Source: Lingula anatina (Eukaryota > Animalia > Brachiopoda). From it: DNA of 64,000 nt. Location of the stretch: assembly GCA_051362555.1 (NCBI GenBank), contig CM120640.1, positions 64,272,788 through 64,336,787 of the forward strand, in the 5' to 3' direction. The notes under the pieces were generated by a model. That model was given only the letters and a program-made list of their open reading frames with translations. It was not told the origin of the DNA and did not search any database. This document shows, in pieces, positions 264 through 40,514 of the stretch. Position numbers and translations under genes: made by a program. Positions within the stretch are counted from its first letter, which is position 1. Each line of letters begins with the position of its first letter.

Positions 264-3200
264 GACCTATGGTATGGTACCAGAAGTTCGAGTACGCCAT
301 CGCTCATTGGTTACAGAAGAGTGCGGAACATGTTCTTGGATGCGTTCTGTGCAGTCCTGGCTGCTTTAGTTTGTTTCGTGGGTCTGCGTTGTATGAGGTG
401 AAGGATATTTACATGCAAAAATCTGAAGAAGCTCTACATTGTCTTCAGCACGATCAAGGTATGATTCGTGAAGTTTTTTATATAAAAAAGTTAGTCGTTC
501 TACCTGACTCAAGTTAAGATTTCAAATTTATTGATTGTATTTGGGGAAGTCATAGTAGTAACATCCGTACTATACGTAACAAAAGAATTTCATTTTTTTC
601 TATTGTTATGTTACGTCATTTGAACAATGGAAAACCTATAGCGAACAATGGGGAATGTTTACAAAATAAACAAACAATTTTTTAAGTAAACAAACAAGAC
701 TCCCTATTTTTGTTTACGTTTTACAATGGTAACGGATGACGTCACAGAACGGGCCTGGGCATGTCGGGGTAATGTTTACGTTTTGTCATAGCGACGGATG
801 ACGTCAAGCGCAATTCTTTTGTTAGGCGTGTTGCATGTTTAGGCGTGCAATTTGAAGGCTATATATGTTGGAATGGTCAAATCAAACTCCAATTCACTGA
901 CCTAAGTTGTACGTTCGAACATCAAAATGTCGCAGTTCTTCAAACTTGGTGAAGATAGTCTGTTGTCGATATGCAGAAGCAAACAGGGGGTCCAGTTGGT
1001 CGTCTTCAGCGATTTGAAAACGTTGAACAAGATCCGGATGCCTCGAGAAGCATGGGAAGATTTTAAAAACACCCTGCCTTCCGTCCAAACTGCTATGTCT
1101 ACCGATACTGAAATAGATGATCAGCTGGGGGAAAACTATAATGTCCGTGTGCTGTACGACATTGGTAAGGAGGAATCTGTGATGAAGCTAGCCTACGCAC
1201 CAGTAAGTGCGTCATATCATAGAAGTAGAGAAAATGGAATGCCAACTTCAAATCTCGCAGGCCGAGCTTGTGACCCCGAGAGTTGGGCGAGAGTTGGGGA
1301 GTTTCACTTCCGGTTTCCATGCCGCTGCATTCAACTCACGCTCTACATGTTTCAATAACTACTATTCATAGCGACTAGAGCTAGTTTTTACGATAATGTG
1401 ATTTGCTATGGCGTAAACGGGAGTCTGGACATTCTAACTGCAGTTTTTATGGTGTGAAAACGGAATCATTAAAACCCAAACCGCTTTATTTGGTGCGTGT
1501 GACAGAGTGTATTACCGAAGTCGAAGATACACGGAATATAATTTAGCAATGTAAGTAATAACTTTTGTATTTTAATACAATATTGTGTTTTTTAAGCGTA
1601 AATTTAAGGAGTGAGAGGCTCATTCATGATATGATCTGTCCTTGAATACAATGGTCGTCTGACGCCGATTGTTTTCCGTTTATCCCTCAAGTGTCCATGT
1701 ACGGTCTTCGAGAAATCTGTGAACTAAATGTCGTTATCCAAGCTGTTAATAAAAGCACAGAATATTTATACATATAAATATTACATATTTAGTTGTCCCC
1801 TTTTCATTTTATGCATTTGTACAAGCAAAATACGAACATGTTTAATAAGAAAAAATGGAAATATCAAAGTCATACTTGGAGTTGTGCCATACCACCAGAG
1901 GATCATTGCAACACTAAACTAGATCAGTTATAGCTGGTTATTACTCCTGGAGATATAGCTTCAACATATAATTAAGATATACCTGACTATGTAGGACTAA
2001 TAATAATAAAAATTTATTAGAAATGTAAATTTTTATTCTGTTCTTTTCAAGGGTGTCAAGAAGGAGTTTCTGTTGTGTTATTCTATGCAGTGCCTCTTCA
2101 CAGAAGTGCAAGGGTCTTTCTTTCCACAGCTTGCCTAAGGTAAAATTGAAGCAACACAAAATAATAATCAAGCAAACCATTTTATTATTATCTCTTTTGC
2201 ACCTTTTCACAGTTGAATAACTTACTTCTTTCACAATAATTATATATAAAACGACAATTTATTAAATCTCATAATGTTCAATATTTTACACCTTCATATG
2301 CCAGCTTTTGATTCCACAAAGAAACTCCCATTTCTAAGGCGAGTACAAGAATTAAGGGGGTACATGTATCTTTTCATATCCACAGGAGTGTCTGAGGTTT
2401 CAGACAAATGGAGAAGTCAGCTGATCCACTGCATCAACAGATGTGACAGCTACTTCAATCCTGAGAAAGTCAAGATCTGTTCAAGTTATTTTGAAGCACT
2501 GTTTCATTAAATGTATGTGTACATTCAGGCTGTATAATTGGGGGATGAATATTATCTCATGAAAGTTTATTGAACTCGATTGAAATGAATTAACATCCCT
2601 TTCACCTCCTTATTACAACTTAAATTCAACATTGCTGTTTGCTTACCAAATGAGGACTTATGTCTCGGTTTCAAAGCTTTATTTTTTACATCAGACATTT
2701 AGCAGTGCACACATGTATGGTGAAACTGATTGTAGTTACATACAAATTGAGACTATCCTTACTTTAAAATAGAAATCTATAAATTAAGAAATGTGCATAA
2801 TAAGGGCAGAATTTGTACATTTAGCATGTTATGTAGAACTAAAATGGCAGTCTGGAATAACAGAATTAGAGCATTGGAAAAATGTATCTGTATAGGAAAT
2901 TTTTTCCTAAATTTTTTTCATTTCCATCAACATAGGCTGCATTTGTAGTGATAGATGCAAGTCTGCCTTGTGACTTAGCAGCCTGCAATGTCTGCTTCTG
3001 GCTGTGTACTTTTATCTCCGAGTTGACTCAGTTTTTCCTTGTTATCACTTCCCCTTCATCTATGTTTCAGTTTGCTGACTACAAAAACCACCAATCATTA
3101 TAGTGTGTGATGTCTACCTCTGTCCGTTTGATGGAATCGACAACATTTTCTGCACTAGTAGGGCTGATGAAATGTGCATCCAGGACTTAACTGAAGATCT

Positions 3201-6200
3201 CAACTGCCAACCAGACTGCTATAATGTCTTGTATGCTGGTTGTAGCAGTGAAGATAGCTGACTGGGATGCCTCTCTGTTCAGCCTGGAGACCTTGGACTT
3301 CTTTACCAAACAGGGAGATATATATTGTCCCAAAAGGTAGCAGAAACCTGAAACTAAATTAGAACTGTATGCTAGTGATGCACGTTTTTTAAAAGTACTA
3401 ATGGCAGAGTACAACTAATTATGTCTGACTCCAGATTTTGACATATCCAAGAATATTGCTGTTTGAGAAATCCATTTCAATACGACATCTTTATTTTTAA
3501 CTATGGCTATGTAAAACATTGGCTTTTAAATGTATACTGACAGTCAATAAAATCATAGCATTTATTTATCAAATAATATTTTAAGTTCCTTTGGTACATT
3601 AAGAAAATGACAGTTTTCATGTGAAATATGACACATTATTCAGTCACACATTTCACTCTTTTATGACCAAAAGAGAGTTGGAATCGATTCTCATTAAAAA
3701 AAGGACAAGAAAGTTTTCTGATGCACTTTCACTGTCTGTCACCATATATTAAAGAATAATCCATAGTATAACATGAACAAGAGCTGAGAAAAAAATCGAG
3801 TATGCAGGCAAGAAAAAGTTACCATTATAATAAACTATGCAGGCAAGGAAAAGTTACCATTATTAAAAACAGGTTGAAATACTATTGTGATTAAGTTCAA
3901 CCCAATATTGCATTTACACTTTAAAATAAATTAATTGCACCAATAGTATTCTATGGGTCAGATGTATGAGGCTTCAAACTGTGTGAACAGGTGCTGATAT
4001 TATTTAAGGAAAATTTAAGGTGTAAAATCAAGCACTTCCAAATTAGCTATCTTAGGTGATGGCATCAGATAACCCATGGTTTGCAGCTAAGAGTAGAAAA
4101 AAAATTAATAATAATAATAATAAATAAATAAAATTTAAAAAATAATAAAATAAAAAAAATGAAATAAACAGAGGAGAAAATAACAAACTATAAAATGCTT
4201 TTAAAGATAGACGAGGCATGATGTATTACATGGAAAACAAGTAAAAACATTTTTATATAGTTTTGAAAGTTCGTGGTATAATTAAGGCACAGGAAATAAT
4301 TTATTTTTTGGATTTCTTGAACATTAGACTGAAATATTACCATGTTCAAGAGTGTATTAAACAATTGCAAAATATCTCTAAACTGAAATCATTGTATTTT
4401 CTAAATGTTTCAGCTGAAGATGCTTTATGTATTTATATCTGATTTCTCTAAATTAAACTGTTCTTATCATATACTGATGATTGATCAAAGTAGACAAGAA
4501 AACATTCCATAGAAATATAAAAATTTTATATGCAGGTCAAGAGTAAAATTCATTTGCTATTATTGTTATTATGTATGCAGTAACAGCTGTTATTGCTACT
4601 ATAACTGATACATATTTGGAACTTTGTAATTTTGATAAAAGCCTTGAAATACTGAAATAAATATATTCTTTAACAATGTACCTTTTGAAGTTTCCTTTTG
4701 CATATTTATAGCTGCTGTATGTCAACAAAATGCTGGATGCAGCTTTTCCAGGGATTGCTCCACTAATTGTGAGATTTCAGTCACCTGAAGTAGTAAATTT
4801 ACAAAAGCACTGTCAACAAATTATTTTTGTATTTGTATCATGTTTCATTATTAATGTAAATGCATAATATCTAACGAAAAGGAATGTACTGTACCAATTT
4901 CCATGTAACTATAAAATGTTTCATCATATAAAAATGTTCTCAAACAAAAAAAAAAAAAAAAATATTCAGAAAGATGGTTATTTTTATTTATTGCAACATA
5001 CTAGGGTGGTGCTACTGGTTGCGTGGTGCTCTGTACGGCGAGTTGCAGCATACTGAATCTCTCTTCAAAATCATCCTATAAACAGAAAATTTACTTAAAA
5101 TTTTGGAAAAAATAACTTACAACAAATACAAAATTTTAATGATAATGAATGTGAGTAGGATTTAACTTAATGAGGTGATTTAATATCGGTAGAAAAAATT
5201 ATTGGGTCGCCTTTTCCTTGGCAGGAAAATTGCTAGCAGCCTTGTATTTAGTTGTAAACAAAAGCATTAAATAGCAAATTCCCTAGTTAAGGGACAGAAT
5301 TTTATTCCGACTTTTTTCAAGTATGATGTGCAGTCAAACTACAGTTCACGGCTAGTACGGACTAATATTCCGTTGCTGTACAGATATATCATTACTTGAT
5401 CACGACAGGGAAAGTAAAACTCTGCCGGCTGTCCACGTGCTTTGTGTGAGATCGCTCGATTATCGTCGATTTTATCCACATGCTGCAATCCAGCTTCGTT
5501 TAATCAAGCTAAGAGACAGACTTACCTCCAATAATGTCAACTTCGAGGCCATTATTAATCAAATTGAACCAAAAATCTGTCAAAATGACGCTCAATTGTC
5601 TTAGCACGCCTGCTCCCCATTCACATGTAGTGCAACAAAAGTTGACCGGAAGTAAAACTACCCAACTCTCGCCCAACTCTCGTGGTCACAAGCTCATAAC
5701 ACAGAGGGCAATACAAATCTCGCGGGAGTTGGCATTCCATTTTCTCTACTTCTATGGTCATATGAAGCAATGTACGATGTACAATTTGACAAACGCACAT
5801 TGGAGACGTTGCTGACCAAAATGCCTGAAATCAATGCAGCGTTGGGTGAAATCCCACCGACAACAGTCAGCGAGGAGCCGGAAGAAAGTGATGAAAGAAT
5901 GTTTGGGGCCGAAAACGATGTAGAAGCAGACGTAGTATTAATACGTCTCATTTACGTGAAGTTGATCGTGCAGGAAATAGAGGCCATGCGTTGCAGGTAC
6001 TGTACTGGGTGTATAGCCGCGCACGGTTCCCAAAAGCATCACATGGATGGGTGTATGGCCGACTGGTCAGTTTCGGTACATGTGTACTTCACCAGGGCAA
6101 AAGCTGCTGTAAGTCATGAGGTAATACTGAAGGCCTACAAGTTAATGAAGAAAAAACTGAGACAACAAGAAAATCCATACATACTTTCCGTCATCATGAC

Positions 6201-9200
6201 TGCATCGTTGCTGGAAGATTTTCGGAAAGACGTGGAGGAACCGAGCCCCTGATACCGTCCTCGCTCGTATGGTCTACGATGTGTGCAAGATTGTATATGG
6301 CGAACATTTGTATAAGACGATAAAAAATCAGAATAAACTTTGAATTGAACAGAAAAAGACGCCGTATAATCTGTGTAGAATTAACCAAGTTTGTATGTAC
6401 ACTAGTAAGAAGTGTGCGATGAAAGAAGACATTTGATTGGTTGATTATGACATCATATCTAAAAATAGATTTATATGTGGAACGTTACTTTGATGTGATG
6501 AAGACAATTTGATAGTAAATAGTTGATAACAAACATTTCATTGATTAAAATAATATGTGATTCGATTGGTTGAAAAAATGTTATTTGTTGTTAGCTGTAA
6601 CGTGATTGGTTAGAAAAAATGTAATACCTTTTAAGAAGCAACATGATTGGTTGAAATAAACACACAGCTTACCTGAAAAATTACAAAAATGTGTTTGCGA
6701 TCATTTTTCTTTATACTGAGTAGACAGAATGGATGATGATCATCCGGAAACCGATTCCGAGTTGGGGGGTGTGCTATATGGACCGGTCATGCCATACGCA
6801 AAAGAAGAAGACCGAATTTTGAGTTTTCTGAATTGGCCGGGCAAACTACTTATCAACCCAATCCCTTTAGCCATTAGTGGATTTTACCGAGACCCACGAG
6901 CGTCTAGACACGATGCTGTGGTTCGTTGTTTTTACTGCGATTTGTATCTAAAGAATTGGGACCCGCTGAGAGATGCCCCAGATGTCGAACACGAACGACA
7001 CTCTCCTCAGTGCACGATGAGTACGGTTGGAAAAAGAATAAATCAACGATTTAATGTACCACTTACACCTAAAAAGCGATTTCAAATGGTTAGGCTTTTT
7101 GTGGTAGATGACACACTGCCCGTTGTACATACCGCCAGTACAGTGATGTCGCTACTAAATACCCATTACGATGAAACTGATGGGAACTATAAATAGAGAT
7201 AGGATAAAGAAAGAAATCATTTTGCTTGTTGGAATTGATCCATAATTGTATGAGAAAATGCCGCGTAAGAAAAAAACCAAGAAAGGGCAGAACAAAACAG
7301 ATGCATATCTGCATAGTTTGTATACCAACCCGTCAAACCCTGTAAGCTTTGGTGGCATGTTAAAACTGTATAATGCCGCACGAAAAGATGGTAAGAAAAT
7401 CAGTCGTCAGCAAATCAAAGATTTTCTAGCCGCCCAAGATGTGTATACATTATATGCACCGGTTAGGAAACAATTCAGTACAAATCGCGTCATGGTGAAT
7501 TATATTGATGATCAATGGCAGGGTGATCTGGCAGACCTCAGTAAAATAGCAAAATACAATAAAGGAATGAAATTCTTGTTAACCGTGATTGATATATTTT
7601 CAAAATACGCATGGGCAGTTCCAATCAAATCAAAATCAGCGGACAATGTATTAGATGCGTTGAAAGGCATTGTTTCCGAAGGCAGAAAGCCACTGGTACT
7701 TCAAACTGATGCAGGGACAGAATTTACAAATAGAAAATTTCAAGCGTACCTCAAGAGTCAAGGCATAGCTTTTTTCACAACAAAATCGGAAAGAAAAAGC
7801 TCTGTGGTTGAGCGTTTTAACAGAAGCATAAAGACCCGTTTGTACAGATATTTCACAGCAAACAGTACGTTAACGTATGTGACAGTCCTAAACGACTTGA
7901 TGACAGGATACAACCATGCAAAACATCGAAGCATAAAGATGGCCCCAATCGATGTGAATCCACGAAATGCAAACATTGTGTGGAAAAACTTGTATGGAAA
8001 AGTAAAAATAGGGAAGTCGGGGTTTAAATTTCAAGTAGGAGATACTGTAAGATTAAGCAAAACACGCACCCCTTTTGCGAAAGGATACGAACAGGGATGG
8101 ACACAGGAAATATTTACAATATCAGAAAGATTAAACAGAACACCTCCTGTGTATAAGGTTAAAGATTACAATGGAGAGCAAATCGAAGGTGTCTTGTACG
8201 AACCAGAAATGATTAAAGTTATTAAAACTGACGACGTGTATCGTATCGAGAAAATTTTAAAGACCCGTGGAAAGGGGAAAACTAGGCAGCTTTTTGTAAA
8301 ATGGGTAGGTTATGATGATCGTTTCAATACTTGGGTAGATTCGAAGGATGTACAAAAAACATAAATGTAACCGGTACCAGACAAAACACCTCATTTGAAA
8401 GGATGGCGTCGTCTTTTCATGTTATCTTACCGTCAAACAGCAGCTTTAAGTATTTCCCTAACAACAGATCTGAGACATTCCAAACAAAACTGTCATCGTC
8501 ACTTAATCTAGAAGGGGATTTTGAAGTCGCATTGGTCGAACTACAGTACCCATATTCGTGGAATAATATTCAGAACGGTGTCTTGACATATTACGACGGG
8601 GTAAAAACAAATACGTTAAACATTACTGCAGGGTATTATCCGACAGTTGGCGATCTAATAACTGCAATTCACGATCAGTTAACAGCTATTGGAAAAACAA
8701 ACATAACGTTGGGTTATAACATTATCAGTAGACGAGTTACAGTTCACTTGAAATCGGGGGCCTACATCGATGTTGCGGGAGACATGGCGACAATGCTAGG
8801 GTTTAAACCGAATGTCAGAGTTAATGCGGATACCATAGCCCCTTACCCTCCAAACATGACGTTAGGGTTCAATTCCCTCTACGTGTATACAGATATTATA
8901 CAAAATCAGATGGTAGGGGACGCTTCGGCAAATTTACTGAGGATTGTCATATTAATGGCGTTTACGGACAAGTGGTCACAAAAACATTTGACAATCCCAT
9001 TTACATCCCTCTAAATCGTCGTCATATTGACACAATTCGAATAGATATAAGTCGTGACACGGGTGAACTTGTGCAGTTTGATAGCGGGAAGGCTATAGCG
9101 ACACTTCATTTTCGCAGAAAGAGTTTATTATAAAAAATGGATCCTGTATACGTAGCGTTAGTAAAAAGATACGAAGCACAGGTGGGCGGAGGGTCCATTC

Positions 9201-12200
9201 ATAAATTTAGAGGTACAAGGGTACAATCACGAATGCAAAGAGGCAATGGTAGGTTATTTCAACCTAGACACGCTGAAATATTGCATGTACATAGACAGAA
9301 CAACCCGAAACGCACAGAACAACCCGCGGTAAAGAAGAAACGTAAAAGAAGTCGTACCCCGAAGTCAAAACTTTATGTTAATGGTGACGTCATAAGGAAA
9401 ACGTTAAACGCCATGACTATAAAAAAGAACAACACACCTAAAGCATCCAGAAGAGTAAAAGGTAGACGACCAAAACAGTCACGTTCATTCAAGGCACGAG
9501 AAACGAATTTTTAGACATGAATAACACTGAAAATGATCCCATCGTCAGAACTGAACTGGATATATTTTCGAATATACGCGATCATATGCAGACCGATCTG
9601 TTATCGAGCTATTTTGAAGAAGTGAGACCTCTCACTGCGGTTGCAGATGTGAGCCCCGTGATAGAATTTGTCATTAAAGGAACACCCGACGAATATATCG
9701 ATACGACGCAAATCAACCTATACGTTGAAGGTCAAATTGTTAAAGCAGATGGAACTGACATCGATGCAGGACAAAACACGTCAGTTGTGAATAACACGCT
9801 ACACTCCCTATTTACAGCGGTTGACGTAGAGTTGAATGACCATTTAATAACTGTGGGACAGAATACATATGCCTACCGCGCATACTTGGAAAATTTATTG
9901 TATTATGGGAAAAATGCTAAAGAATCGCTTTTAACGTCGGAAATGTATTACCGAGATACCGATGGAATGATGGATGACGTTGATGTAGACGGAGACCCAG
10001 GGAATGAAGGATTTAAGGCCCGTAATTCTTGGTTTCAAAGGAGCAGGAGGGTTGAAATGTATGGACCGTTAAAAATTGACTTAGCCACTCAAAACAAGCT
10101 TCTTCTGAATCAAGTGGACGTACGAATCAAGTTGCGAAGGACGTCGCATGCATTTTGCCTTATGTCGGACACGGGTGAACAAGAGCAATTTCTGATCAAA
10201 AACATATCCCTTTTTGTAAGGAGAGTCAAAGTATCTGATCGGTTGAAACTGGCTCATGAGAACATATTAGCCAAGCACGTAGCATGTTATCCCATGACTA
10301 GAAGGGAAGTCAAAGTTATCAATTTACCCAATGGTGTAAGAACGGCTCATATTTTGGACGCATGCCTAAACGTATTCTTTTGGCTTTGTTGGAAGATGAT
10401 GCTTTTTCGGGAGATTATACTAAGAATCCGTTTAATTTCAAACACAACGATTTAAGGCAACTTCGATTAATGGTGGCGGGGGAACAAATACCATTCAAAC
10501 CTTACAATTTTGATTTTAGTGTTCAAGGGGGGTTAAACTACTTAAGGGCGTATTATGATCTTTTGTCAGCAGTTGGAGCGTCAGACGGAGAGCACAGCAT
10601 CGATATTGATAGAACTCAATACCTAAATGGATATGTTTTATTCGCTCACGATCTTACCCCTGATCAAACCTTTGACAATTATATAACTCCAACAAAGCAG
10701 GGTTCGCTTAACATTGATCTGGAGTTTGGACAACAGATTAACAATATCGTGTTGCTTGTCAGGGCTGAATTTGATTCAGTTATCAAAATTGACCAACGTA
10801 GAAGCGTTTTTGTAGAATATTAAATATGAATACGAAGCAAATAGAATGCATTCTTCAGACTGATCCGGTTACGAGAACATGTTTCCAAGGGGTGTTTGCA
10901 TCAGACGCGTTGCCCAAAAAGATATGTACTTATCCAGCATGCCTCGTGGCTAATACGGATCCTCACGATAAACCGGGCGTGCACTGGGTTGCTTTTTACT
11001 TTGATGAACAGGGACACTGAGAGTTCTTTGACTCTTTTGCGAAATCACCTTATTATTACAACGCAGCTTTTAAACGTTTTTTAGACGAAAACTCTTTATC
11101 TGGGTGGAATTGTAACACTAGGACATTACAGAGCCTGTATACCAAAGTGTGTGGACAATACTGTATATATTACTTGATGAATAGATCTCGTGGAAAAAAA
11201 TTAGAACAGATACTTAGTAAATTCACCAGCGACAAACAATTTAATGATATATTTGTGTATGATTATGTTAATGCACATTGCAACATACCCTACTGTGTAA
11301 ACGCGTGTTTTCAAGTTTGTAGATCAAAGAAGTCACTAGGAATATTGTATTAAACACATTTATTCGAGTAATAATAAAAATACAGCTGTGCAAATATGTT
11401 TTATGTTATTATTTTATTTCAATATATGTTGAATAAAGATAGTTTAGATTTTACTACATTTCCCGAATCCTTCTGACTTGGCCTGGGAGCTGGTTTAGTT
11501 TTTGCTACATGTCCCGAGCCCATCTGAGTTGAACTGGAAGAAGTGTCCAACGACATAATCTGGTTGCGCCGCTTTACGTTTGAGATGTTATTCAGCGGTA
11601 CATTAAGACGTTTCAAACCCTTTAAAAATACAGTAAGCCCTGGCGGTTCGTAATTCCTACGGGGTACGTACAGATCGTTAAACAAATCTACTACATTGCT
11701 TCCTTCGTACACTCTACCATTGTATTTCAACTCCCCCTGATCATTTTACGACAGCACATTAGGTTGGTTAGACATGTATCTCAAAATTACGTTAGCTTTG
11801 CGACGCACACGCTGTGGTATTGCATCTAATATCTCGGCTTTAAGATGTAATACAGATCCAGCCTTTGACTTGACGGTGGGGGTTGCGGTTGCGTCAGCGG
11901 TGTCAACTCCAAGTTGTGCTTCTAATGGTTGTGACGAATTGTGCACAACAACTGCAACCGGTTCGCGTTTCCTCGCTTTACTCAGATATTGACTATGAAG
12001 ATCGTTGTAGATACTCATTTTTTCATCGAATGGTACATCGGTCCTTTGCAAAGTTTTCTTCATTTCATTTTCTAAACGTAGTGTTTCTTCGACAAAGGGT
12101 GAATAATTAGCGCTTACTCTCTGTTTCAAAGCATTCAGTTCGTTCTCGTTGATTAAGACCATTTTATTGAAGCCTGCCATTTCTTGTTATCGGTTTTAGA

Positions 12201-15200
12201 ATTGCCTTAACTGCACTAGGATTCCGTATCAAAATTATTTTTTTCCGCTGAATGGACACTTGTTTGGAAGCCAGCTGAACGATGACGCGTTTAACCCTCC
12301 GTAATGCCGATTTTTCTGTCGCAGTCAGGGTAATATTTGTATTGTATAATAGATTAGATGCGTAGTTACAGATAATTCTAGCGAGATCGTAGTGTGAATT
12401 CTTAACAACGGCAGTTATCAATTTCTTGTCGGCTATGGAAAGCAAATTGACATGAGCTTTGAATAACTTTTCTGTCTCAACTTTCATGATACACCGAAGC
12501 GATGAAAATATGTTCAGTCATTTACATGTGTATGCGTAATGCGTTTCTCCGGGAAAGATATTGGTGCGCAGACGAATGTTTTCCGCAGTGGCTTGTTTGA
12601 GATCTATTAGTAAATAACCATGGGCACTGGCTGTGGCGTCTTTATAAACATTTATAAACGTTTTAAGATCGTTTGGATACATTTGCATTCCTAGCGTTTT
12701 GACTTGCAGGGAGTCACGGGGGTTTTTAAAAAGAACCAAATAATGACAGTTCAACGATATGGTTCGCACGTGCTTTTCTTTGGGAAATAAATTTTGTACA
12801 ATCAATACTACACTAATGTTACGATGGTGAGAGCCTTTTGTGAATAGGTCACGGATCCGGGCATCGTCGCTACATTCGGCAAAAAGATCATCGAGTACTA
12901 TTAGATTATTTAATTGAGAATCAAAAAAGGTGGCGTCGGTTAAGTCGGTCGGAATACCTTTAAAGAATGTTACTGTGTCAGGGTGTTCCCTCTGAATTTC
13001 ATCAAACAACTGCTGCCAAATATCGTAACAATAAATTATCTTTTGTGGCGACGGTGAAATCATTGTATCGGCATTTGATAATAGCCTTTTAATCCACACT
13101 GTTTTTCCTGATCCAGTGGGCCCTGCTAAAAGAGCAGTGAAAGGGTGTTTTAGATGTGTATCGTACATGTCCAAAAATGTAATTGGCATTTATCGGCTTG
13201 ACGGGTTTACTTTATAACTTTTATCACATGAGAGTGGTGATGAGTTATGGGATGATTCAAATGTAACAGACGATCAGCTAGTAAATCATGTAGATCAGTT
13301 CGAAGGTGAACTCGGGATGGGGGTAGATTATAGAAGGTTTTATAATCTGCGACGAGTCAATGAACGGCGCATGAAAAAATTTTCTACTGTAAACACGGAC
13401 TATCAGCTCACATTCTCCCATTTAGAAAATAGAAGTTTAAATTCTATGATGCCCTTCCTTCGTGAGCTTTTCCAAAACATATTTGACGACTTAGTGCAGA
13501 ACATGCTTCCTCATGATTTGGTCAGAATTGTCTTGCAATCTGACACGTTAGAGTATCCCATATCAATAGCGTTCACGAGGGTATCTGAATTTACAGTGGA
13601 TCTCTTTTTGGACGAATTGATAAGAGTATTACAGTCTCACGAGGAGTTAAGACTTGACGCATCTATTATTTTAACTGTGTGTCATGTCAGTATGCCACGC
13701 CCTGGTGGAACAAGATTAAAACGTGGGTCTATGGGTATGCAGAGCTTTCTCCACGCAAAGCGTTCAGTCATCCAAATACATAACGGGGGGGGGGGGGGGG
13801 GGGGGGGAGATCAGTTGTGCTTAGCGCGTGCATTGGTTGTAGCTATGGCCAAAGCAGATTATGACCCCGAATATGCAACAATCGTTAATAAGCGCTGTCG
13901 TGAACAATTAGAAAGAGCCCAAGACTTGCATACAAGTGCTGGAGTACCGTTAGGTCCTTGTGGTGTCCCTGAAATTAAACAGTTTCAGTCATATTTGAGT
14001 AATTATCAAATATCTGTGTTTTCTGGAGATCACTTTATGAGTTTAATTCATAAAGGGCCTTCAGCTTTGAAGGAACTGTTTTTATTTTACCATAAGGGGC
14101 ATTATGATGTCATAACTTCGATAACAGGTTTCATGGGTAGGGCCTACTATTGTACGGAATGCAATATAGGTTTTGATCACATGGGTGACCATTCGTGCGA
14201 AAAATATTGCGAGAGGTGTAAAAGGGATTCGTCATGCAAGTTTGAAACATGGCGTCATTGCGATCAGTGTAGCAGAAATTTCCTCTCTGACAGCTGTTTT
14301 AGAAATCATACACTTGTACCCGAACAAGGTAGATGGTCAACCTGCCGACGATTTACTCTTTGTAAAAAGTGCACTAAATTTGTCGATCATAAAAGGGAGA
14401 AAAAACATGTGTGTTACACTTACAAGTGCAAGTCATGTAATAAGTACGTCAAAGACGGTCACTTATGTTACATGCAAATTGATAGAGATGACCGTGATGT
14501 GGATGATGACGATTTACTTATGTATATCGATGAGAATCCTGCTGCCAATTTCATTGGTAAGTTCAAACCTGGTTCAAAACGCCCTTTCATATTTTTTGAT
14601 TTTGAAGCGCAGCCATCGCATATGTTCATACCCCTTATCTAGTGGTTGCTCACAGGGTATGTCATCACTGTCTAAATTTAGACGTAACCCCCACTAGTAC
14701 ATGTGAGCTATGTGGCAAAAATGAACATGTGTTTAAGGGGCCCTCGTGTGTTGATGAATTTTGCAAATGGGTATTTGAAGATCAGAGTTTTGAACGTGCA
14801 CAAGGTAAAAGGAAAAGGAAAGGAAAAAACAAAGGAGGTCGCAGTAAACGAATGAATCCTGGAGCATCGTCATGTTTTGATGGTGATGAGTATGAATGTG
14901 AGAATAACGAGGAGGATATGATCATACATAATGGGGCTATATTGTTGGCATACAACATGTCTGGTTATGATGGTTTTTTCCTCTTAAAATGGCTCAAAGA
15001 CCAATGTATCGTTCCCGAGGTGATATTACGAGGCGCCAAGGTGCTTTCTATTAAGGTGGGCGATATAACCGTTCTTGATTCTTACAGCTTCCTCCCCATG
15101 GCACTCAACAAACTTCCCGCTGCATTTGGTCTAGATGAATCCCTGTCAAAGGGCTACTTCCCCCACTTCTTTAATACCCCTGAAAACCAAGACTATAGGG

Positions 15201-18200
15201 GTAAAATGCCCGCCACAAATTTTTATGGCTCTGACTCAATGTCTGTCGGTGCGAGAGAAAAATTTTTGGCATGGTACAATGATCAGGTTAGTCAAAACTA
15301 TATATTTGATTTCCAAAAGGAAATACTCATATACTGCCGCATGGACGTCACCATTCTTCGGCAAGCATGTCTCCGTTTCAGGAAATTAATGCTTGATATA
15401 ACAGTTGCGAATGGTGTGGAAATTGATGTGGTTTACAGATCTATCACTATAGCCAGCGCATGCAATGTTGTGTTTAGATCTTTATTTCTTATGCAAAACA
15501 CGATCGGCATTATTCCAGCACAGGGGTATAAGCCGAAAAACAAAACGTCCGTGAAAGCAGCTAAATGGTTGCAGTATAGGGCGGAGCGTGACAATGTCTT
15601 TATACAGCATGCTCATAATCAGGGAGAAAAGAAAATAGGAAAGTTTGTCGTTGATGGTTGGGCGTCAACAACTAACACTGCCTACGAGTATCAGGGGTGT
15701 TTTTGGCATGGGTGTCCAAAATGTTACAACAGTTACAATATCAACAATGTCAGTTTGATAACAATGGGTGAGTTGCTAGAAAGGACGGTGGATAAGAAGC
15801 ATGCGCTTCAATCTTTAGGTTTCAACTACATAGAGGTATGGGAGTGTGAGTTTGACAGGGTCATACGGGAGGATGCTGGCGTGAAGGAAATAGTGGATAG
15901 CGTGAACGTTGTCGATTGTATTGATCCTCGTGAAGCCTTTTACGGGGGCAGGACGAACGCAGTCAAGCTTTTTTTGTCAGGCAGATCAGGGACAGAAAAT
16001 ACGTTACATTGACGTGTGTAGTCTATATCCCTATGTCAACAAATACAAACCATACCCCCTCTGTCACCCCACCATCATAACCGAAAACTTTGGTCCTCTT
16101 AGCAAGTATGAAGGTTTAGTCAAATGTACTATTCTTCCTCCTCGCGGCCTTTATCATCCTGTCCTTCCCTATAGATCACAAGGGAAACTAACATTTCCTC
16201 TTTGTCGCACATGCGCTGACACACTGCAGCAGACGCGGTGTGAGCATAGTGACGAAGAGCGTTGTATGACAGGTACATGGGTTACGGTCGAGTTAAAAAA
16301 GGCCGTTTCCAAGGGCTATGTGATTAAACAAATGCACGAGGTCTGGCATTATGATCATGTTAGCGAATACAACCCAATCACAAAAACGGGGGGCCTTTTC
16401 TCTGACTATATCAATACATTTCTCAAGCTCAAACAAGAGGCCAGCGGCTACCCACCAGAGTGCACGACACCACAGCTAAAAAGAGACTACATTGCTTCCT
16501 ACTTCACCAAAGAGGGCATTCGACTAGACCCTAGACAAATTAAGAAGAACCCAGGTCTTAGAGCTTTGTCTAAACTGATGCTTAACAGTTTTTGGGGTAC
16601 GTATAAACAGAGTTAGCATTCATTTATTACATACACTATGTCGGCGGTTCACGCAAGATTCCAATATTTGTATTTACCACTCACTGTAAATATCAGTAAT
16701 AACAAAGTACGTACATTTGCATATTACATCTGTCCTTGATGCGTTATTATGTTTACACATTGTTTATTCACATCATACAATATTACAGTACTTCTCATTC
16801 GTGCATTTTCACTATCCTTACTATCATAGTTATGTTATTATTTTTTATTTTTGTTATTTCAGGCAAGTTCGGTCAACGAATGAACATGACACAGTCCGAA
16901 TACGTCACCGAGGTGGACGAGTACTTTGCGCTGCTGTTGAACAAATCCATCGATGTCACCAACGTGATGTTTTTAACCGATGATATGGTGGAGGTACACT
17001 ACAAACACCAATCTGAGTTTAATGAATGCTCCGATAAGACCAACGTCGTCATAGCCGCGTACACCACCGCCCACGCTCGTATGGTTCTTTACAGCGCCAT
17101 AGAGGTCCTGGATCGAAACGTTCTTTACTTTGACACGGACTCAATAATCTTCCTGGACGATGGCAGTGCACAAACCAACGCCTACCTGAATACCATCATG
17201 GGCAGCTACCTTGGCGACTTCACCGGCGAGTTGGATGAGGGGGACCACATCACCACCTTTGTGTCGGGCGGCCCTAAAAACTACGCATACGTTACCGCAA
17301 AGGGAAAGACAATTTGTAAAGTGAGGGGTATTTCACTGAATTATGAAACCTCCCAAATAGTGAACTATGAGACTTTGCGTAACATGGTACACGGTATAGG
17401 TCCGAAAGAGGTGTCAACCACTACACACCATAAAATTGTGAGAGACACTCTGAATAAAGAACTGCTCTCTAAAAGGGAGGATAAAGTTTACCGGGTTGTG
17501 TACACTAAACGTGTCATTCAGCAAGACTCATTTGATACACTACCATACGGCTATTAAATTTCATAAACTGCTGAGTAGTGTTGTTTATATAATTATCATC
17601 TTTCATTTTGTTGTACATACATTGTTTTGGTGTTTTAATCTGTATATACAACTGTTAATTCACTATAATCAATTTGTAATGCAATTATGTATCATAATTA
17701 TTATCTTTCAGTAAAATAGACATTTATGTCCATTGTTTTAATGTGTACATACAACTGTTAAATCCCTATAATCAACTTCTTACAATGCTGGAAGATTTTA
17801 ATAAAATCATGGTTTTATTTACAACTATACTTGTTTGTCACTATATTATGCTCTTTATCCTTAGTAATTCTTAAAAATCTCCTACTGTTTTAATATCAAG
17901 CCCAGGCCCGTTCTGTGACGTCATCCGTTACCATAGTGAAACGTAAACATTACCCCGACATGCCCAGGCCCATTCTGTGACGTCATCCGTTACCATAGTA
18001 AAACGTAAACAAAAATAGGGAGTCTTGTTTGTTTACTTAAAAAATTGTTTGTTTATTTTGTAAACATCCTCCATTGTTCGCTATAGGTTTTCCATTGTTC
18101 AAATGACGTAACATAACAATAGAAAAAAATGAAATTCTTTTGTTACGTATAGTACGGATGTTACTACTAGTCATGTATTACAAGACGTACGTATTAAGTT

Positions 18201-28833: not shown

Positions 28834-31800
28834 TCAAGAGGCTTTAGTTGTACATGTTCCAACATCAGACTCCTTATTGGTTTTCTTTGGTAATGTTGCA
28901 CCCAGGTTAATAGCTACTGAAGATCTGAAAAGACAAGAATAAAAGTTATTTGTAATGTATAAAAATGTTAAAGCATATTCAAAGTAAAACAATGCTGAAT
29001 ACTTGTATATCATAAAATACTGCCCTAGTTGTTAAAACTTTTTTCAAAAATCTCAAAGGCACTTCCTTGCAGAGATGGTGAAAATCAATAAAGCAAGTTC
29101 TTATCTATCTGCCCCTGGCATCTAGTCTTCCAAAAACAATCACAAAATAATAACAATAATAATAACAATGATATATGAAAATATGGCTCTGCAATCTTCA
29201 AATAAAATGATATCAGTTAAATACACAACATAAAAGCTACCAACCTATTATGTGTTAAATGACTCCTGACTAAATGTCCTGCAGCAAGTGCAGACATCAG
29301 AGACAGCTCTCCTGCCAGAACAGTAGCACACACCACTCTGGCCAACAGGGATGCATTGCAGCCTGCCACACCATTACTACCATGTACACCAAGCATCTGA
29401 AATACAGAAGCGTACTTAAGAGTAAATCCAACTGTAAGGATTGGGACACAATGTATGAAAAAGAGCAAAGAGGTTAATGAAACACATAAAGCTGTCTATG
29501 CAAAGAAAATAGGAATACCTACTGTTTCTAACCCCTCCCCCTTTTTTTCTACGTGTATAAAAGGCCATACCTGTAAGCAAGCAGCCTGTGGTGGTAACAC
29601 AGTCCCACCTCCCACAGTGCCCACCTCTATGGAAGGCATACTACAGCTGATATAGAGATCTTCACTGTGAGGTCCCACGCCCTCCATCAGAGTTATACAA
29701 TTAGCACTGGTCACCACCTGGGCTGGATCTTGACCAGTGGCTATAAAAATAGCAGTCACTATGTTGGCTGCATGAGCGTTGAAACCACCAATACTGCCTG
29801 CCATGGCTGAACCAATTAGATTCTTACTCAAGTTCACCTCTACCAGTGCCTGTGTGGTAGTTTTGAGAACATTGCGCACTGTGCTGGCAGGAATTGTGGC
29901 CTCACATACAACTGATTTGCCTCGACCTTCAATCCTGAAATAAATTTTTGGGAAGTTCATTCCATGGATGTAACTAGAGGATCAGAGAGGCGATACCGCC
30001 TCCAAATATTGTACCACCAGCTGGAGCAAACGCATTCGTATAGACCCCCACATACACAAAATAAGGGACACAGCCACCAGTTTTGTGCTTGACAAGCTGT
30101 AAAAATGCAATCAACAAGAATTTTTAAACTATTGCAAAAAATATATATGGTACAATCAAATTTAAGTTCTTCGTAAGGTAGGTCAAGGGTCAATTTCAAG
30201 GTCACAGTAAATTGCCAGTATATGACTTCCTATTCAAGTTCAAGAGTAACTATGGACCTATCTCTGTCAAGTTTGAAGTTAAAAGAGAAAGAAATTAGCA
30301 GAGTTCAGTTCATGGTAAAAAGTAGGTCAAAGGTCAATTTCAAGGTCACACTTAGATTGCCAGTATAGGACTTCCTATTCAACTTCAATAGTAACTATTG
30401 ACCTATCTCAGCCAGTTTTGGAGATAAAAGGGAAGCAAAATTTGTAAAATTCAGTTCATGGTGAAAAGTAGGTCAAAGGTCAATTTCAAGGTCACACTTA
30501 GATTGCCAGTATAGGACTTCCTATTCAACTTCAATAGTAACTATGGACCTATCTCAGCCAGTTTTGGAGATAAAAGGGAAGCAAAATTTGCAAAATTCAG
30601 TTCATGGTGAAAAGTAGGTCAAAGGTCAATTTCAAGGTCACATTTAGATTGCCAGTATATGACTTTCTATTCAAGTTCAATAGTAACTACGGACCTATCT
30701 CAGCCAGTTTTGGAGATAAAAGGGAAGCAAATTTTGCAAAGTTCAGTTTATGGTGAAAAGTAGGTCAAAGGTCAATTTTAAGGTCACATTTAGATTGCCA
30801 GTAAATGACTTCCTATTCAAGTTCAATAGTAACTACGGACCTATCTCAGCCAGTTTTGGAGATAAAAGGAAAGCAAAATTTGCAAAATTCAGTTCATGGT
30901 GAAAAGTAGGTCAAAGGTCAATTTTAATGTCACACATAGATTGCCAGTATATGACTTCCTATTCAAGTTCAATAGTAACTACGGACCTATCTCTGCCAGT
31001 TTTGGAGATAAAAGGAAAGCAAAATTTGCAAAATTCAGTTCATGGTGTAAAGTAGGTCAAAGGTCAATTTTAAGGTCACATTTAGATTGCCAGTATATAA
31101 CTTCCTATTCAAGTTCAATAGTAACTATGGACCTATCTCTGCCAGTTTTGGAGATAAAAGGGAAGAAAAATTTGCAAAGTTCAGTTCATGGTGAAAAGTA
31201 GGTCAAAGGTCAATTTCAAGGTCATAGTAAGATTGCCAGTACATGACTTCCTATTCAACTTCAATAGTAACTATGGACCTATCTCTGCCAGTTTTGGAGA
31301 TATAAGGGACTAGATGTTATAATTTTGGAGTTACCATAATGTGCCTTAAATTTCGTACAGAAAAAATTAATTAAAATAAAGAAAATGTCATTTTGGTCAA
31401 AATTCTTGAAATAGGAGGTACTCTGAAGTTTCAGAAGTTCAAATTTGATGAAATAATGTCATTTTTGAACACAAGTTGTCTGCTTTGCCAAGCCTTATGT
31501 TTTATTTTTCCAGAGTTCAAAATTTATTATCCATTACCGTACTGCACATTTTGCTTTTACCACCAATATGTACTTTTTGATACAGCGTAACTCGAAAACC
31601 GTATGGAATACAAAAAAACCGAGACGACCTCCAGTGTTGGGCTTTACATGCTCTACAAAATGCAAAAAAGAATGGGTCTCTAGCATTAACGATTCCCGAA
31701 TTAGAGACAGTTTTCAGTTTCGGTATCTTATGGCCGCTACTCCCGTGAAAATGCACCGATTGACCCCAAATTCATGGAGATGAAAGATGACCTGAAGGGT

Positions 31801-34800
31801 AATATTTTCCAATAATATTATTGGTTAAGTCTGTGTGGTGTCTGAATAACAGGGCAAAAAAAATTTTTTTCGTAAAAAATTTCATTTTTTTGAAAATTTT
31901 GGCCCATTTGACCTTGAAGTAGAGGTCACAGGTCAAATCCAAGGGTATATTTGAAATCTACACATATGACTTTTGGAAAGCCGTCTATAGAAATTTTTCC
32001 CATAACTCCTTCTGTAGGGTAGATAATTAGCATTTAATTTTGCCATTTTTAGACAAGGGTGAATTGCAATGAGTGCCACACCCAGACCCCAATACCGACA
32101 AAGCCCAAATTTTACGTGGAACGAGTTGAGATTATAGGTGACCTAAATCCATGAGATGGGTACGGGGGCCCTTACCGTCTAGGAGGAGAAGCGGTAACGG
32201 TAGCCGTCCGGCGGAGCCGGCGGAGCCGGCGGAATGATCCGGACGGGACCGAAACCATGTGTACCGCCAGCGCTAACGCTGGTGGTACAATGATGCCAGG
32301 ATGCATTAATAATTTTTCTGTATATAAGGACTTGTATTATGAAGACTTTGTAATGAAAATATGAATGATTGCACAAGAAGAATCCCCCCCCCCCCATATA
32401 TAATAGTACTTTTTTACCAGCAGATAAATTGGGGATAAGGGGATAAAGTGTCTACAACACTTCATTTGGGCACACAAAAAATTACAGATGCATCCAAACT
32501 TCACAGCAGTCAGAGGTATTTAACCTCTGATTCTTTAGAATTACCTTATCACTTTTCCAGAACAAAAGTCTGCTGAACAATGATCTCAATGCGATTGACT
32601 GAAAACTGTAACAGATGACTGGGCAAAATGGCAAAAACCTTCAATTTTACACAAAAAAATGCTCATCTTATTCCACGAAAAGCAATGCACACTGTAAGTT
32701 TGCTTTGTCATCTTCTTACTTACCAATTGATTGCAGAGGCCTTTTTGTCCACACAATAATTCCCACTGAGACTTATAACTTCCATTTCTTCAAATTTATC
32801 TTGGAGAAAACTAAGGGCTTTTTCTGTTCCCTAAAACATATGACAAAATGTGCTTAAATTACCAGACACACAAAAATTTCATTTCCCAAATTTGCATTTC
32901 ATAATTGGTCAGTTTTGATAAAATATGTATACAAAATCTTTTTTTAAATATATGTAGGCAATTTATCAATTATAATATATTTTTCTTTCATATGAAGGAA
33001 ATTTATAAATTGCAATGATTTTTGTCTAATTTGCATTGTTAAAGAATAAAATTCTGTGTAATTACTTTGTTTAAAAAATGCATCAAAATAGACAAAATGG
33101 ATTATATATAAATCATGATCACCTTAGATAGCATATTCATCCCCATGGCATCTCCAGTTACTGCCACAAAACGTATATATAAGTGTCTCCCTGCTTGGGC
33201 TGACTGAACCCTGTCTAGTCTACAAAACCTGTCATCAAATTTGAAAAAAAAATAATAATAATAATAAGTACACATTTTTAAAATTACAACTTAAGGGTCT
33301 TAATTCCAGTTTTGTAGTTGTTAAAATAAAGGTGAGTTTGAATTGACAAGACAGTAACATGTTTGACTTCAAATCCAGAAAATTTACTACACTACAAATT
33401 GTAGCCAGACGGGTCTTAGTATCTGCATCTAAAATGTATTTAGAAGCAGAAAAAAAAGATAAATCCATCAAATCCCATTCAATAATAAAAATAAATAACA
33501 TAATTCACTCTATTACCTGCTAGTAGAATCAAATGCTTCCTTTAGTATATCAAAGTTGTCCCTATTGTTAAGCCATAGCTTAAGTTCGCTGGCCTTTTGA
33601 GCACTGGGAAACCTGACTACTGGCCCCCTGGACATACCATCTCCTATTACCATGCTCTTCACACCACAACCCTATAAAAAAAGGGCATACATGAAGCAAA
33701 ATATACACACTAATTTCACATTACTTTATATGTAGTCTTAAACTCATTTTGTTAACTTGCTTCTTTTTTTCAGGGATTTTTATCTAGTCCATGCAACATT
33801 TTACTAATAGTACAAATATAAATGCATTTTAATCAATTTAAAAAACTAATTTTCTACCATTGCTACTGAAACTACTGAAGTAAATATTCTAATTCAAACT
33901 ATTCAATTGATTCAACTGATTCAAACTCTGATTGCTTCAATGATAAGCCAAACTAAGTCCTGGAATATGCATTGCATTTCAAACTACATCTTTCTTAAAT
34001 ACATTCTACATCATTTCACATTTAAATGTAGAATGTACTTACAGCTAAAGCCCTACAACCTCTGTTTGCACTGGCTACTAGGCAACCCTCTGTAGTTGCC
34101 ATGGGAACCTGGTACTGCTGACCATCTAAAACTAGTGGACCAGCTACACCCACTGGCATGGGCAAATAGCCTATTACATTCTCACAACATGCACCTTCAA
34201 CCTGGAAATGCAACCAAAATATGGTTAATATGAAACCTTCAAGATAAAATTATTTTTATTGCTGGAAGATATTATCCTGTTTAAAGATGGCCTGCTATAA
34301 CTATATTCAGAAAAATAAACATGGCTTATGTGCTTATTTTTGATTAAAAATAAATATTTCCATTACAAGATGTTAATCTTAACCAATTTTCAAATTATTT
34401 TATCTTTCACAAATAAGATTTTGAAATATTACTCTTTCTCAACTTACATAAGTATAGTCGTAATTTGTATAGGGTAGCATTTCCATTGCTTTGGTGTTTG
34501 GAAGAACTTTTGAGACAAGATTTCTCCTGAAAAAAAAAAAGCAATCCTTGAAACACATCACTATGTTATATGCTATTCCTGACAGATTAATCTTCACCAA
34601 AATGTAACATGCAGATTAAAGAAATAAAGGAATGTTATGAATTGTACCTTATGGCAACTCCCCTTTCATGATTCCCAAGAGTACTTTCCAACTTGTAGGC
34701 AGGAATATGGCGGGATTTCACTAACAGTAATATTTCTTCATCTGTTAGTTGACTAGGTCCTTCCTATGTATTGAAAAATATCAGCAAAAATTATACAATT

Positions 34801-39705: not shown

Positions 39706-40414
39706 CTTTGGGCCGCTCACTAGTTGGGATTTCAGCAGCTGAAAAATAAAACATACACCTATTTAAAAAAAAAAAGACATCCTCAGATATAACCAATCAC
39801 CCATCAATTGTAGTTAAAACAAGAAACGTATTCCAATTTTGACCAAATTCAACAGTTCAAAAAAGTGGGAACAAATCAAGGCAAGCATTAATTTTTCTTA
39901 ATAAATATTTTCACAAATTGATGAAAAAATATTTAATCTAATTTCACCAATGTTGCTTCTTTTTGTTGTTGTTGAAAGTATTTTACACTGATCTCCTTGA
40001 ATTCTCTTGTTGTTGTTCCATTTTCAACACTTCTTGGGAATTAAAATTTAAAAAATGTTTAAGCTACAATTAACTTTTACTTTAAAATAACAGATGCTTT
40101 ACTATAATTTGACAAAAACAATGTAAATAGCGACTATACAACTTTTCTGTAAATTACCTTTGGATCTGTATAACAATCCGTCTGAGAGAAAAACATTTTG
40201 AAATTCAAAACGCGCAAAATTTCTTGCAAACCTCAAAATATGTGCTTGACAAATAAAATCCCTTATAAAATATCGATATGTGGTCTAACACCTAGGAATC
40301 GCAAAACGAAGTCTGCTTTTGTGTTGCATTCGGTAAGCGACTGAAACTACTTGGGATAATTCAGGAATCACTGAAAACACCCATGGTTGTTCCCAATGTT
40401 TGCTTTTCTAATAT

Positions 40415-40514
40415 ATTGGCTGAGAACAGGTCGGAGACTTGGTGGTGTGATTGTCAGACCACCTTTTCATTCATGCCTCGCAACCAATCAAAACCTCCAC
40501 TCAATGTGCACGTG
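40415..40514 (-). promoter_or_regulatory. HMGCR proximal promoter: SRE flanked by CCAAT boxes, plus an E-box
   Basis: ATCACACCAC (minus strand, 40442-40451) matches the SRE consensus ATCACNCCAC; CCAAT at 40415 (minus) and 40484 (plus); CACGTG at 40509. Confidence 0.65.

What the first reader, a model, noticed from the sequence alone, without database searches (positions are those of the whole stretch)
6729..7196. Polinton-encoded anti-apoptotic candidate: intact single-BIR IAP-like gene
Seen: a complete BIR domain in an intact ORF directly upstream of the integrase, while neighbouring virion genes are broken. Known: BIR/IAP proteins are used by baculoviruses and other large DNA viruses to block caspase-driven death, and are not among the core Polinton genes. 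Inference: a counter-defence module consistent with a lytic viral phase, or a domestication candidate.
Basis: partly seen in the sequence, partly recalled or inferred. Interest (0 to 1): 0.75.

Follow-up and report, generated by a model that had tools for sequence, protein, structure and literature searches.

The report
Polinton-borne single-BIR apoptosis-inhibitor gene
A decaying virus-like Polinton element inside an animal chitin-synthase gene carries a small intact BIR-domain gene that related elements also keep and that likely helped the active element delay host cell death; such genes are already reported from Polintons, and this copy is likely intact by chance rather than adopted by the host.

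Summary
Observation confirmed: 6729-7196 is an intact 155-codon ORF with one complete BIR (Pfam E 6.5e-13), 61 bp before the integrase of a 17.6-kb Polinton (554-18168, TIRs, 6-bp TSD). It is an accessory gene of the element lineage, not a host fragment. A subfamily about 20% diverged keeps BIR before integrase; 9 of 13 listed differences are synonymous; the nearest other BIR is 48% identical; one unrelated Polinton also carries a RING-less single-BIR gene. The type II pocket residues that BIRC6 needs for SMAC and caspase binding are kept, and there is no RING or UBC, so a decoy or competitor role is likely but untested. 'Intact among broken genes' carries no weight: P(intact by chance) is about 0.75, and 4 of 9 other genes are intact too. 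RNA is near zero with a weak control. Domestication is unsupported; a lytic phase was not tested. IAP genes in Polintons are in print (Starrett 2021), and this scan noted a Maverick-type IAP carrier in another genome. The new lead is a possible BIRC6/Bruce origin, about even odds.

The parts
548..553 (.). 6-bp target-site duplication, left copy (AGTCAT)
   Evidence: identical hexamer at 18169-18174
554..806 (+). left terminal inverted repeat, starts AGTAGT
   Evidence: 96% complementary to the right arm over 254 nt; 4 mismatches in the first 230 nt
927..1206 (+). start of a left accessory ORF, cut off by the nested insertion
   Evidence: ORF 927-1358 runs into the inverted repeat; no significant match to the L003 counterpart
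1207..5769 (.). nested insertion of about 4.6 kb with imperfect inverted ends, AT-rich interior
   Evidence: inverted match 1208-1315 with 5645-5769; GC 25-35% in 2001-5000; RNA loose ends at 5756/5758
5770..6252 (+). accessory ORF with paired-cysteine motif, shared with another Polinton
   Evidence: 34% over 83 aa to L003 ORF 4649-5635, E 4e-11
6435..6652 (+). four reverse CCAAT-box words (GATTGGTT) upstream of the BIR gene; promoter role inferred
   Evidence: at 6435, 6564, 6604, 6645; the only 4 in the element, 9 in the window against 3.6 expected
6729..7196 (+). the finding: intact single-BIR ORF, 155 aa, BIR at about residues 23-97, no RING, UBA or UBC
7258..8364 (+). integrase with C-terminal chromodomain, intact
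   Evidence: Pfam rve 5.8e-14, Chromo 4.5e-7
8403..9133 (+). minor capsid protein (penton), frameshifted near 8950
   Evidence: two frames in tblastn with the L003 counterpart; name from gene order
9137..9514 (+). small basic ORF in the PW/cupiennin position, intact
   Evidence: weak match (E 0.006) to the L003 ORF in the same place; name by position only
9517..10823 (+). major capsid protein (hexon), frameshifted near 10350
   Evidence: two frames, 36-38% to the L003 counterpart; name from gene order
10826..11353 (+). adenain-type protease, in-frame stop at 11018-11020
   Evidence: 39% to the L003 ORF, which hits Peptidase_C5
11402..12180 (-). ORF in the PZ position, in-frame stop at 11746-11748
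   Evidence: name by position
12164..12487 (-). ORF in the PM position, intact
   Evidence: name by position
12518..13189 (-). packaging ATPase, intact
   Evidence: Pfam Pox_A32 1.6e-7
13317..17557 (+). protein-primed DNA polymerase B, two frameshifts (near 14630 and 15990) and an inferred GT-AG intron at 16597-16862
   Evidence: Pfam DNA_pol_B_2; frames; intron ends; no spliced read listed
17916..18168 (-). right terminal inverted repeat, ends ACTACT
18169..18174 (.). target-site duplication, right copy
269..458 (+). host chitin-synthase coding stretch before the element; the element lies in the intron that follows, and coding resumes at about 18351
   Evidence: Pfam Chitin_synth_2 positions 252-292 left and 419-517 right of the element; exon ends read from the sequence

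Best explanation
The ORF is an intact single-BIR accessory gene of a Polinton/Maverick lineage, and its product is predicted to bind the exposed N-termini (IAP-binding motifs) of SMAC-type antagonists and processed caspases, likely acting as a ligase-free decoy that would delay host apoptosis while the element replicates. Shown: the gene, its place before the integrase, its retention in a diverged subfamily, constraint on the BIR core, the type II pocket residues, and the absence of RING, UBA and UBC. Inferred: zinc-bound fold, peptide binding, decoy action, expression from its own CCAAT-rich upstream region during an active phase. This particular copy is a decaying insertion in which the short gene has likely just escaped mutation.
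For: Lineage gene: contigs of two DNA runs (X3 record 5, X5 record 10) match 6773-7069 at 80% with no gap, then, after 319 other letters against 312 in the window, match the integrase at 81%. X3 holds at least four sequence types over the BIR. Selection: 9 of 13 listed differences carried by the diverged types are synonymous against a neutral share of 0.23-0.29 (P 0.0005-0.003; rough dN/dS 0.13-0.18). Against XP_013419444 (P0001), identity is 60 of 75 inside the BIR and 31 of 77 outside (P 6e-7). No indel inside the ORF is listed for any of 4 runs, while three lie outside it. Recurrence: L003, a Polinton with the same core, has a 213-aa single-BIR, RING-less ORF 1.75 kb before its integrase. 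Pocket: E87-H88-x-x-H91-C95 meets the conserved type II rule of PMC8917759. D82, H91 and P93 align with BIRC6 D342, H351 and P353 (counted with the 2-residue construct offset inferred from chain length); D342 and H351 are required for SMAC and caspase-3/-7/-9 binding in bioRxiv 2022.08.30.505748. Precedent: anti-apoptotic IAP and Bcl2 homologues in adintoviruses, and viral IAPs fill the BFVD match list.
Against: No binding or cell assay. The synonymous test rests on 13 of 60 or more differences, chosen by the tool for support, scored one site at a time. RNA depth over the ORF is 0 in 3 of 4 runs and 0.51 (about one read pair) in one, lower than over polB. The protein has a one-residue insertion beside the pocket (CxxC-to-H spacing 17; 431 of 454 domains have 16) and Ser at the position that PMC8917759 counts as type I-like. 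BIRC6 needs its DOC domain and dimer for full activity, which this protein lacks. BIR domains also serve in mitosis and signalling. Only 1 of 34 Polinton loci with 1 kb or more upstream of the integrase had a BIR (1 of 90 loci in all), so the gene is dispensable for Polintons at large.
Confidence: 0.6

Rival explanations
1. The gene is a selected Polinton accessory gene, but its BIR serves a non-apoptotic end: binding an N-terminal tail such as histone H3 (survivin-like) or an immune-signalling adaptor, to help nuclear retention, integration or NF-kB control.
For: All selection and synteny evidence fits equally. It sits 61 bp from a chromodomain integrase with no AATAAA or ATTAAA between them. 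The Atlas feature search ranks a BIRC5.2-family cluster first, in a tie at 0.92. No ligase domain is present.
Against: Survivin scores below BIRC6 and XIAP BIR2 with the profile (31-34 against 42 bits). The model shows only short C-terminal helices, not a long survivin helix (low confidence there). The published trees place the homologue in group B or E2, never in survivin group A.
Confidence: 0.22
2. It is a neutral passenger: a host IAP fragment picked up and copied along without function.
For: Near-zero RNA; patchy presence among Polintons; intactness expected by chance.
Against: At most 48% identical to any of 473 other BIR domains examined. Synonymous excess and a BIR core far better conserved than its flanks across 20-40% divergence. 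Retained without gaps in a diverged subfamily.
Confidence: 0.07
3. It is a dominant-negative IAP: a BIR without ligase that competes with host IAPs and promotes or times cell death for virion release.
For: No RING or UBC. That RING-less fragments of some viral IAPs can interfere with full-length ones is recalled; one search did not surface a paper that I read on it.
Against: An intact IBM pocket would soak up pro-death antagonists. BIR-only proteins appear among annotated viral inhibitors in BFVD, though these names are annotations only.
Confidence: 0.06
4. This copy has been domesticated by the host as an extra IAP.
For: Intact ORF with its own upstream CCAAT-type words. The homologue is annotated as a host gene and counted among 50 Lingula IAPs.
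Against: Intactness has P about 0.75 by chance. TIRs are 98% identical with a perfect TSD, so the insertion is young. The copy differs from its own-family contigs at 4 of 468 nt, 2 of them amino-acid changing, one at position 63, which is conserved in 97 of 104 other BIR rows and where all four DNA runs differ from the window. RNA is near zero.
Confidence: 0.05

Closest known systems
Adintovirus (Polinton/Maverick) IAP and Bcl2 accessory genes, Starrett et al. 2021, PMC8502044
   Same: Anti-apoptotic homologue carried by an animal Polinton. Supplementary Fig S2 text has IAP labels beside the Mytilus and Pinctada rows and lists Adintoc5:Bcl2 just before Integrase in the Beta header (row assignment inferred from PDF text layout, figure not seen).
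   Different: That paper gives one sentence, with no domain architecture, selection test or donor. Its IAP sequences could not be read, so homology to them is untested.
Vertebrate Maverick architecture, Barreat and Katzourakis 2021, PMC8097293
   Same: Modules int-minor capsid-pw-major capsid-protease and atp-pm-pz, (AGT)2//(ACT)2 ends, 6-bp TSD, about 17 kb, accessory region outside the core.
   Different: polB points away from the atp module and carries an inferred intron; intact vertebrate elements had no introns.
XP_013419444.1 (Lingula anatina, 'putative inhibitor of apoptosis', P0001)
   Same: 159 aa, single exon, one BIR, 60% identical overall and 81% over the BIR; the only full-length relative found in three searches.
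   Different: Annotated as a host gene; its genomic surroundings could not be read, so that it lies in a Polinton is inferred.
BIRC6/Bruce BIR domain
   Same: Long loop after GFY (13 residues; BIRC6 12; 406 of 458 other domains 9), the EHERHSPxC word (0 of 473 other domains), pocket D/H/P, top of both fold searches. The larger published tree puts the homologue in Bruce group B.
   Different: Only about 40% identical; lacks the two extra residues after WP; no WD40, DOC or UBC; sequence scores tie with short BIRs; the smaller published tree says E2.
Baculovirus, nudivirus, malacoherpesvirus and entomopoxvirus IAPs
   Same: Viral BIR fold, 29 BFVD matches at E<=0.001.
   Different: 17-39% identity among the listed rows, no specific relative. 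The functional baculovirus IAPs carry two BIRs and a RING (recalled).

Membership tests
BIR-domain (IAP/BIRP) proteins | BIR profile match above the curated cut-off | tested here: met
   49.4 bits against 22.9
BIR-domain (IAP/BIRP) proteins | C-x2-C...H-x6-C zinc ligands and BIR fold | tested here: met
   C67, C70, H88, C95; VIA Z 12.8, rmsd 1.9 over 89 residues; predicted model
Type II (IBM-binding) BIR | E/Q76, H77, W/H80, C84 (PMC8917759 numbering) | tested here: met
   E87, H88, H91, C95; Ser at 81 is a type I-like trait that BIRC6 shares
Type II (IBM-binding) BIR | actual binding of IBM peptides or caspases | not testable with these tools
   needs a binding assay
Functional inhibitor of apoptosis | blocks cell death when expressed | not testable with these tools
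   no assay possible
RING-type IAP (XIAP/cIAP/DIAP, baculovirus IAP) | C-terminal RING ligase | tested here: not met
   no family other than BIR; residues 98-155 match nothing in Pfam
BIRC6/Bruce | giant protein with UBC domain | tested here: not met
   155 aa, stop at 7194-7196, integrase follows
BIRC6/Bruce | BIR of Bruce type (subgroup B) | tested here: inconclusive
   motif, loop and fold rank for; score tie and WP spacing against; published trees split B and E2; no BIRC6 sequence was available for my own tree
Survivin/Deterin | subgroup A BIR plus long C-terminal helix | tested here: inconclusive
   lower scores, short helices in a low-confidence region, not group A in published trees; Atlas tie with a BIRC5.2 cluster
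Polinton/Maverick | TIRs with (AGT)2 ends and 6-bp TSD | tested here: met
Polinton/Maverick | pPolB, rve integrase, ATPase, protease, two capsid genes | tested here: met
   capsid names rest on order and on homology to L003, not on a fold test
Beta adintovirus | Beta-class PolB and virion module with GasderminX and Cupiennin | tested here: inconclusive
   gene order resembles the Beta header; no reference sequences were compared
Domesticated element gene | single fixed locus, host expression, constraint after insertion | tested here: not met
   multi-variant family, near-zero RNA, private changes; fixation not tested

The most novel reading that the evidence does not exclude
A Polinton lineage captured the BIR of the giant IAP BIRC6/Bruce and trimmed it to a 155-residue stand-alone SMAC/caspase trap, a donor not described for Polinton IAPs in the searches made; the annotated Lingula gene XP_013419444 is then a viral gene counted as a host IAP, and BIR capture by Polintons is recurrent.
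Probability: 0.4. Interest if true: 0.55.

Novelty: new member of a known kind. Interest (0 to 1): 0.33.

Why it matters
It adds selection and synteny evidence to a one-line report that Polintons carry IAP genes, which fits, but does not prove, a replicative phase that provokes host cell death. If the Bruce origin holds, it is a natural minimal version of the BIRC6 pocket and a testable case of which host death regulators small DNA viruses take. It also warns that intronless single-BIR 'host' IAPs in lophotrochozoan gene counts may be element genes. The kind of thing itself is known, and nothing here shows domestication.

Tried and rejected
No whole genome is held, so copies could not be listed or aligned in full. 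Scans of viral contigs with the BIR alignment, the integrase and the ATPase as single queries found no relative. The first fold, from a 2-row alignment, had pLDDT 40 and was dropped. The 1.84-billion-protein search ranks by summed score, so its 150 rows are multi-BIR proteins; single-BIR relatives under about 69 bits, BIRC6 and survivin BIRs could not appear. No RNA holder was listed in the index, which is no evidence either way. Independent capture of the L003 and window BIRs was considered: they are 30% identical and far apart in a FastTree of 475 domains, but a tree holding them together is not rejected (AU p 0.66, 67 rows, 72 columns), so origin is unresolved. Contig depth (520-960 for the own family) was not used as a copy number, since no single-copy baseline was laid. 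That ORFs 927 and 5770 are halves of one gene was not shown. A shared Thr-Asp at positions 8-9 of the window protein and P0001 resembles a caspase site; two sequences are too few. Literature: ten searches. 'Lingula' with 'polinton' gave 0 papers, and none of the 15 listed of 139 Maverick/Polinton papers since 2021 held 'BIRC6'. No complex was predicted, since no IBM-bearing partner was available.

Full report
Observation. The ORF at 6729-7196 (+) is uninterrupted and encodes 155 residues. Pfam finds one family, BIR, at residues 29-97, covering 68 of 70 model positions with 49.4 bits against a cut-off of 22.9. The four zinc ligands, R29 and G51 are invariant in an alignment with 105 other BIR proteins. 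With that alignment AlphaFold gives mean pLDDT 80, and the model matches solved BIR domains. Residues 98-155 match no Pfam family. There is no RING, UBA or UBC. The integrase starts 61 bp after the stop.

The element. The gene lies in a Polinton/Maverick spanning 554-18168. It has AGTAGT...ACTACT ends, inverted repeats with 4 mismatches in the first 230 nt and a perfect AGTCAT target-site duplication. It sits between two chitin-synthase coding stretches. Gene order follows the vertebrate Maverick modules of PMC8097293 (section 7 and passages read), except that polB points outward. Five of nine other genes are broken: minor capsid, major capsid, protease, the PZ-position ORF and polB. Four are intact: integrase, ATPase and the PW- and PM-position ORFs. 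At 6 lesions in 9,801 coding nt, a 468-nt ORF is expected to survive with probability 0.75. Some frameshifts could also be assembly errors; this was not tested.

Is the gene part of the lineage? Four DNA runs from three studies were laid on 6200-7500. Each holds a near-identical family; in X3 one contig covers 6442-7500 with 16 differences. X3 and X5 each also hold one contig that matches 6773-7069 at 80% without gaps and then, at nearly the same spacing, the integrase at 81%. X3 shows at least four sequence types over the BIR. The tool listed 40 difference rows and withheld 53. Of the 13 listed BIR differences carried by the diverged types, 9 are synonymous, against 0.23-0.29 expected under neutrality (P 0.0005-0.003). 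This is a partial, support-ranked sample. The only full-length relative in three protein searches is XP_013419444 of Lingula anatina at 60%, with 60 of 75 identities inside the BIR and 31 of 77 outside. It is a single-exon gene counted among 50 Lingula IAPs in PMC13159474 (supplement rows). Its surroundings could not be read, and the window's own species is not given. The nearest other BIR among 473 domains is 48% identical, so the gene is no recent host fragment, although that set lacks BIRC6 and survivin and may lack the host's own IAPs.

Recurrence. Ninety loci were fetched with an integrase alignment. Fifty-nine have a Polinton core neighbour, and 34 of these hold 1 kb or more upstream of the integrase. 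One, L003, has a BIR gene: 213 aa, single BIR, no RING, 1.75 kb before the integrase. Many loci are too short to show a gene at that distance. The L003 BIR is 30% identical to the window's; shared origin is neither shown nor rejected.

Expression. Four RNA runs (6-25% of each read, about 6.3 billion letters) were laid with one bin set on the ORF. Depth was 0 in three runs and 0.51 in one, about one read pair. PolB bins reached 3. The host chitin-synthase bins were also low (0-1.3), so the control is weak. The result shows no expression above background in these samples, not silence in all tissues.

How it likely works. The BIR meets the conserved type II rule (E87, H88, H91, C95) of PMC8917759 (section 7 read). 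D82, H91 and P93 align with BIRC6 D342, H351 and P353. In bioRxiv 2022.08.30.505748 (passages read), loss of D342 or H351 abolished SMAC-peptide binding and reduced or abolished caspase binding and inhibition. The pocket is thus predicted to take IBM N-termini. With no ligase domain, the simplest action is stoichiometric: trapping SMAC-type antagonists, so sparing host IAPs, or weakly blocking processed caspases. Four GATTGGTT words lie 80-300 bp upstream, the only ones in the element; that they are CCAAT boxes of a dedicated promoter is inferred from recalled promoter biology. Binding, decoy action and any benefit to replication are inferences. A one-residue insertion beside the pocket and the lack of BIRC6's other binding surfaces are cautions. 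This copy looks like a decaying insertion: it differs from its own-family contigs at 4 of 468 nt, two of them amino-acid changing, one at a position conserved in 97 of 104 other BIR rows.

Donor. Several features point to BIRC6/Bruce. The loop after GFY is long (13 residues; BIRC6 12; 406 of 458 domains have 9). The word EHERHSPxC is shared with BIRC6 and absent from 473 other domains. BIRC6 takes the top five Foldseek rows and the top two VIA rows (Z 12.8, rmsd 1.9, 89 aligned; Z 12.2, rmsd 2.1, 88 aligned), though the next entries lie within about 1 Z. The larger tree of PMC13159474 assigns the homologue to Bruce group B beside the true Lingula Bruce. Against this, the smaller tree of the same paper says E2, identity to BIRC6 is only about 40%, the two extra residues after WP are missing, and profile scores tie with short BIRs: 41.2 bits against 26.6-44.3 for eight selected domains at equal target length. 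I put a Bruce origin at about even odds.

Comparison with what is known. PMC8502044 states that adintovirus homologues of Bcl2 and IAP were observed (passages and parts 1-2 of its main section read). The text of its Supplementary Fig S2 shows IAP labels beside two bivalve rows; Fig S1 and the sequence files could not be read and may bear on novelty. PMC11071296 (passages) says most mammal-associated adintoviruses appear to encode anti-apoptotic homologues and/or candidate oncogenes. PMC6431247 (passages) notes BIR domains in planarian Burro retroelements. PMC6360406 was seen as one passage. Other papers were seen only in search listings. Look-ups by sequence and by place returned nothing.

Verdict. 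A real, constrained Polinton accessory gene of a reported kind. It works most likely as an IBM-binding decoy (0.6). It is a BIR protein and not a member of the RING-IAP or BIRC6 families. Intactness and domestication arguments fail. Novelty: new member of a known kind. Interest 0.33; 0.55 if the Bruce-derived minimal-trap reading (probability 0.4) holds.

Noticed in passing
window 16597-16862: Inferred 266-nt GT-AG intron splitting a conserved polB motif; intact vertebrate Mavericks were reported intronless. No spliced read was listed at the low depth available.
   Followed up: partly
window 1207-5769: Nested insertion of about 4.6 kb with imperfect inverted ends inside the left accessory region; RNA reads with loose ends at its right border suggest other copies elsewhere.
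   Followed up: partly
window 30211-49055: Large foldback structure: arms with 146-bp tandem arrays, 93% complementary, about 16.6 kb apart, no ORF of 150 aa except one at 41546-42046 without a Pfam hit. The 146-bp unit recurs at 56432-58437.
   Followed up: no
window 29499-29981 (-): HMG-CoA reductase coding stretch (Pfam E 2.3e-47), next to the foldback structure.
   Followed up: no
L003 1-13062: Polinton in a metagenome contig with apparently unbroken core ORFs from integrase to the PZ position and a single-BIR gene whose N-terminal half is rich in Phe-Gly and Ser-Thr words.
   Followed up: partly
window 13786-13808: Run of about 23 G in the polB 5' region read as a poly-Gly stretch; length may be an assembly artefact.
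   Followed up: no
window 61790-63082: 161-bp tandem array with dispersed relatives at 51009-52060 and 60422.
   Followed up: no
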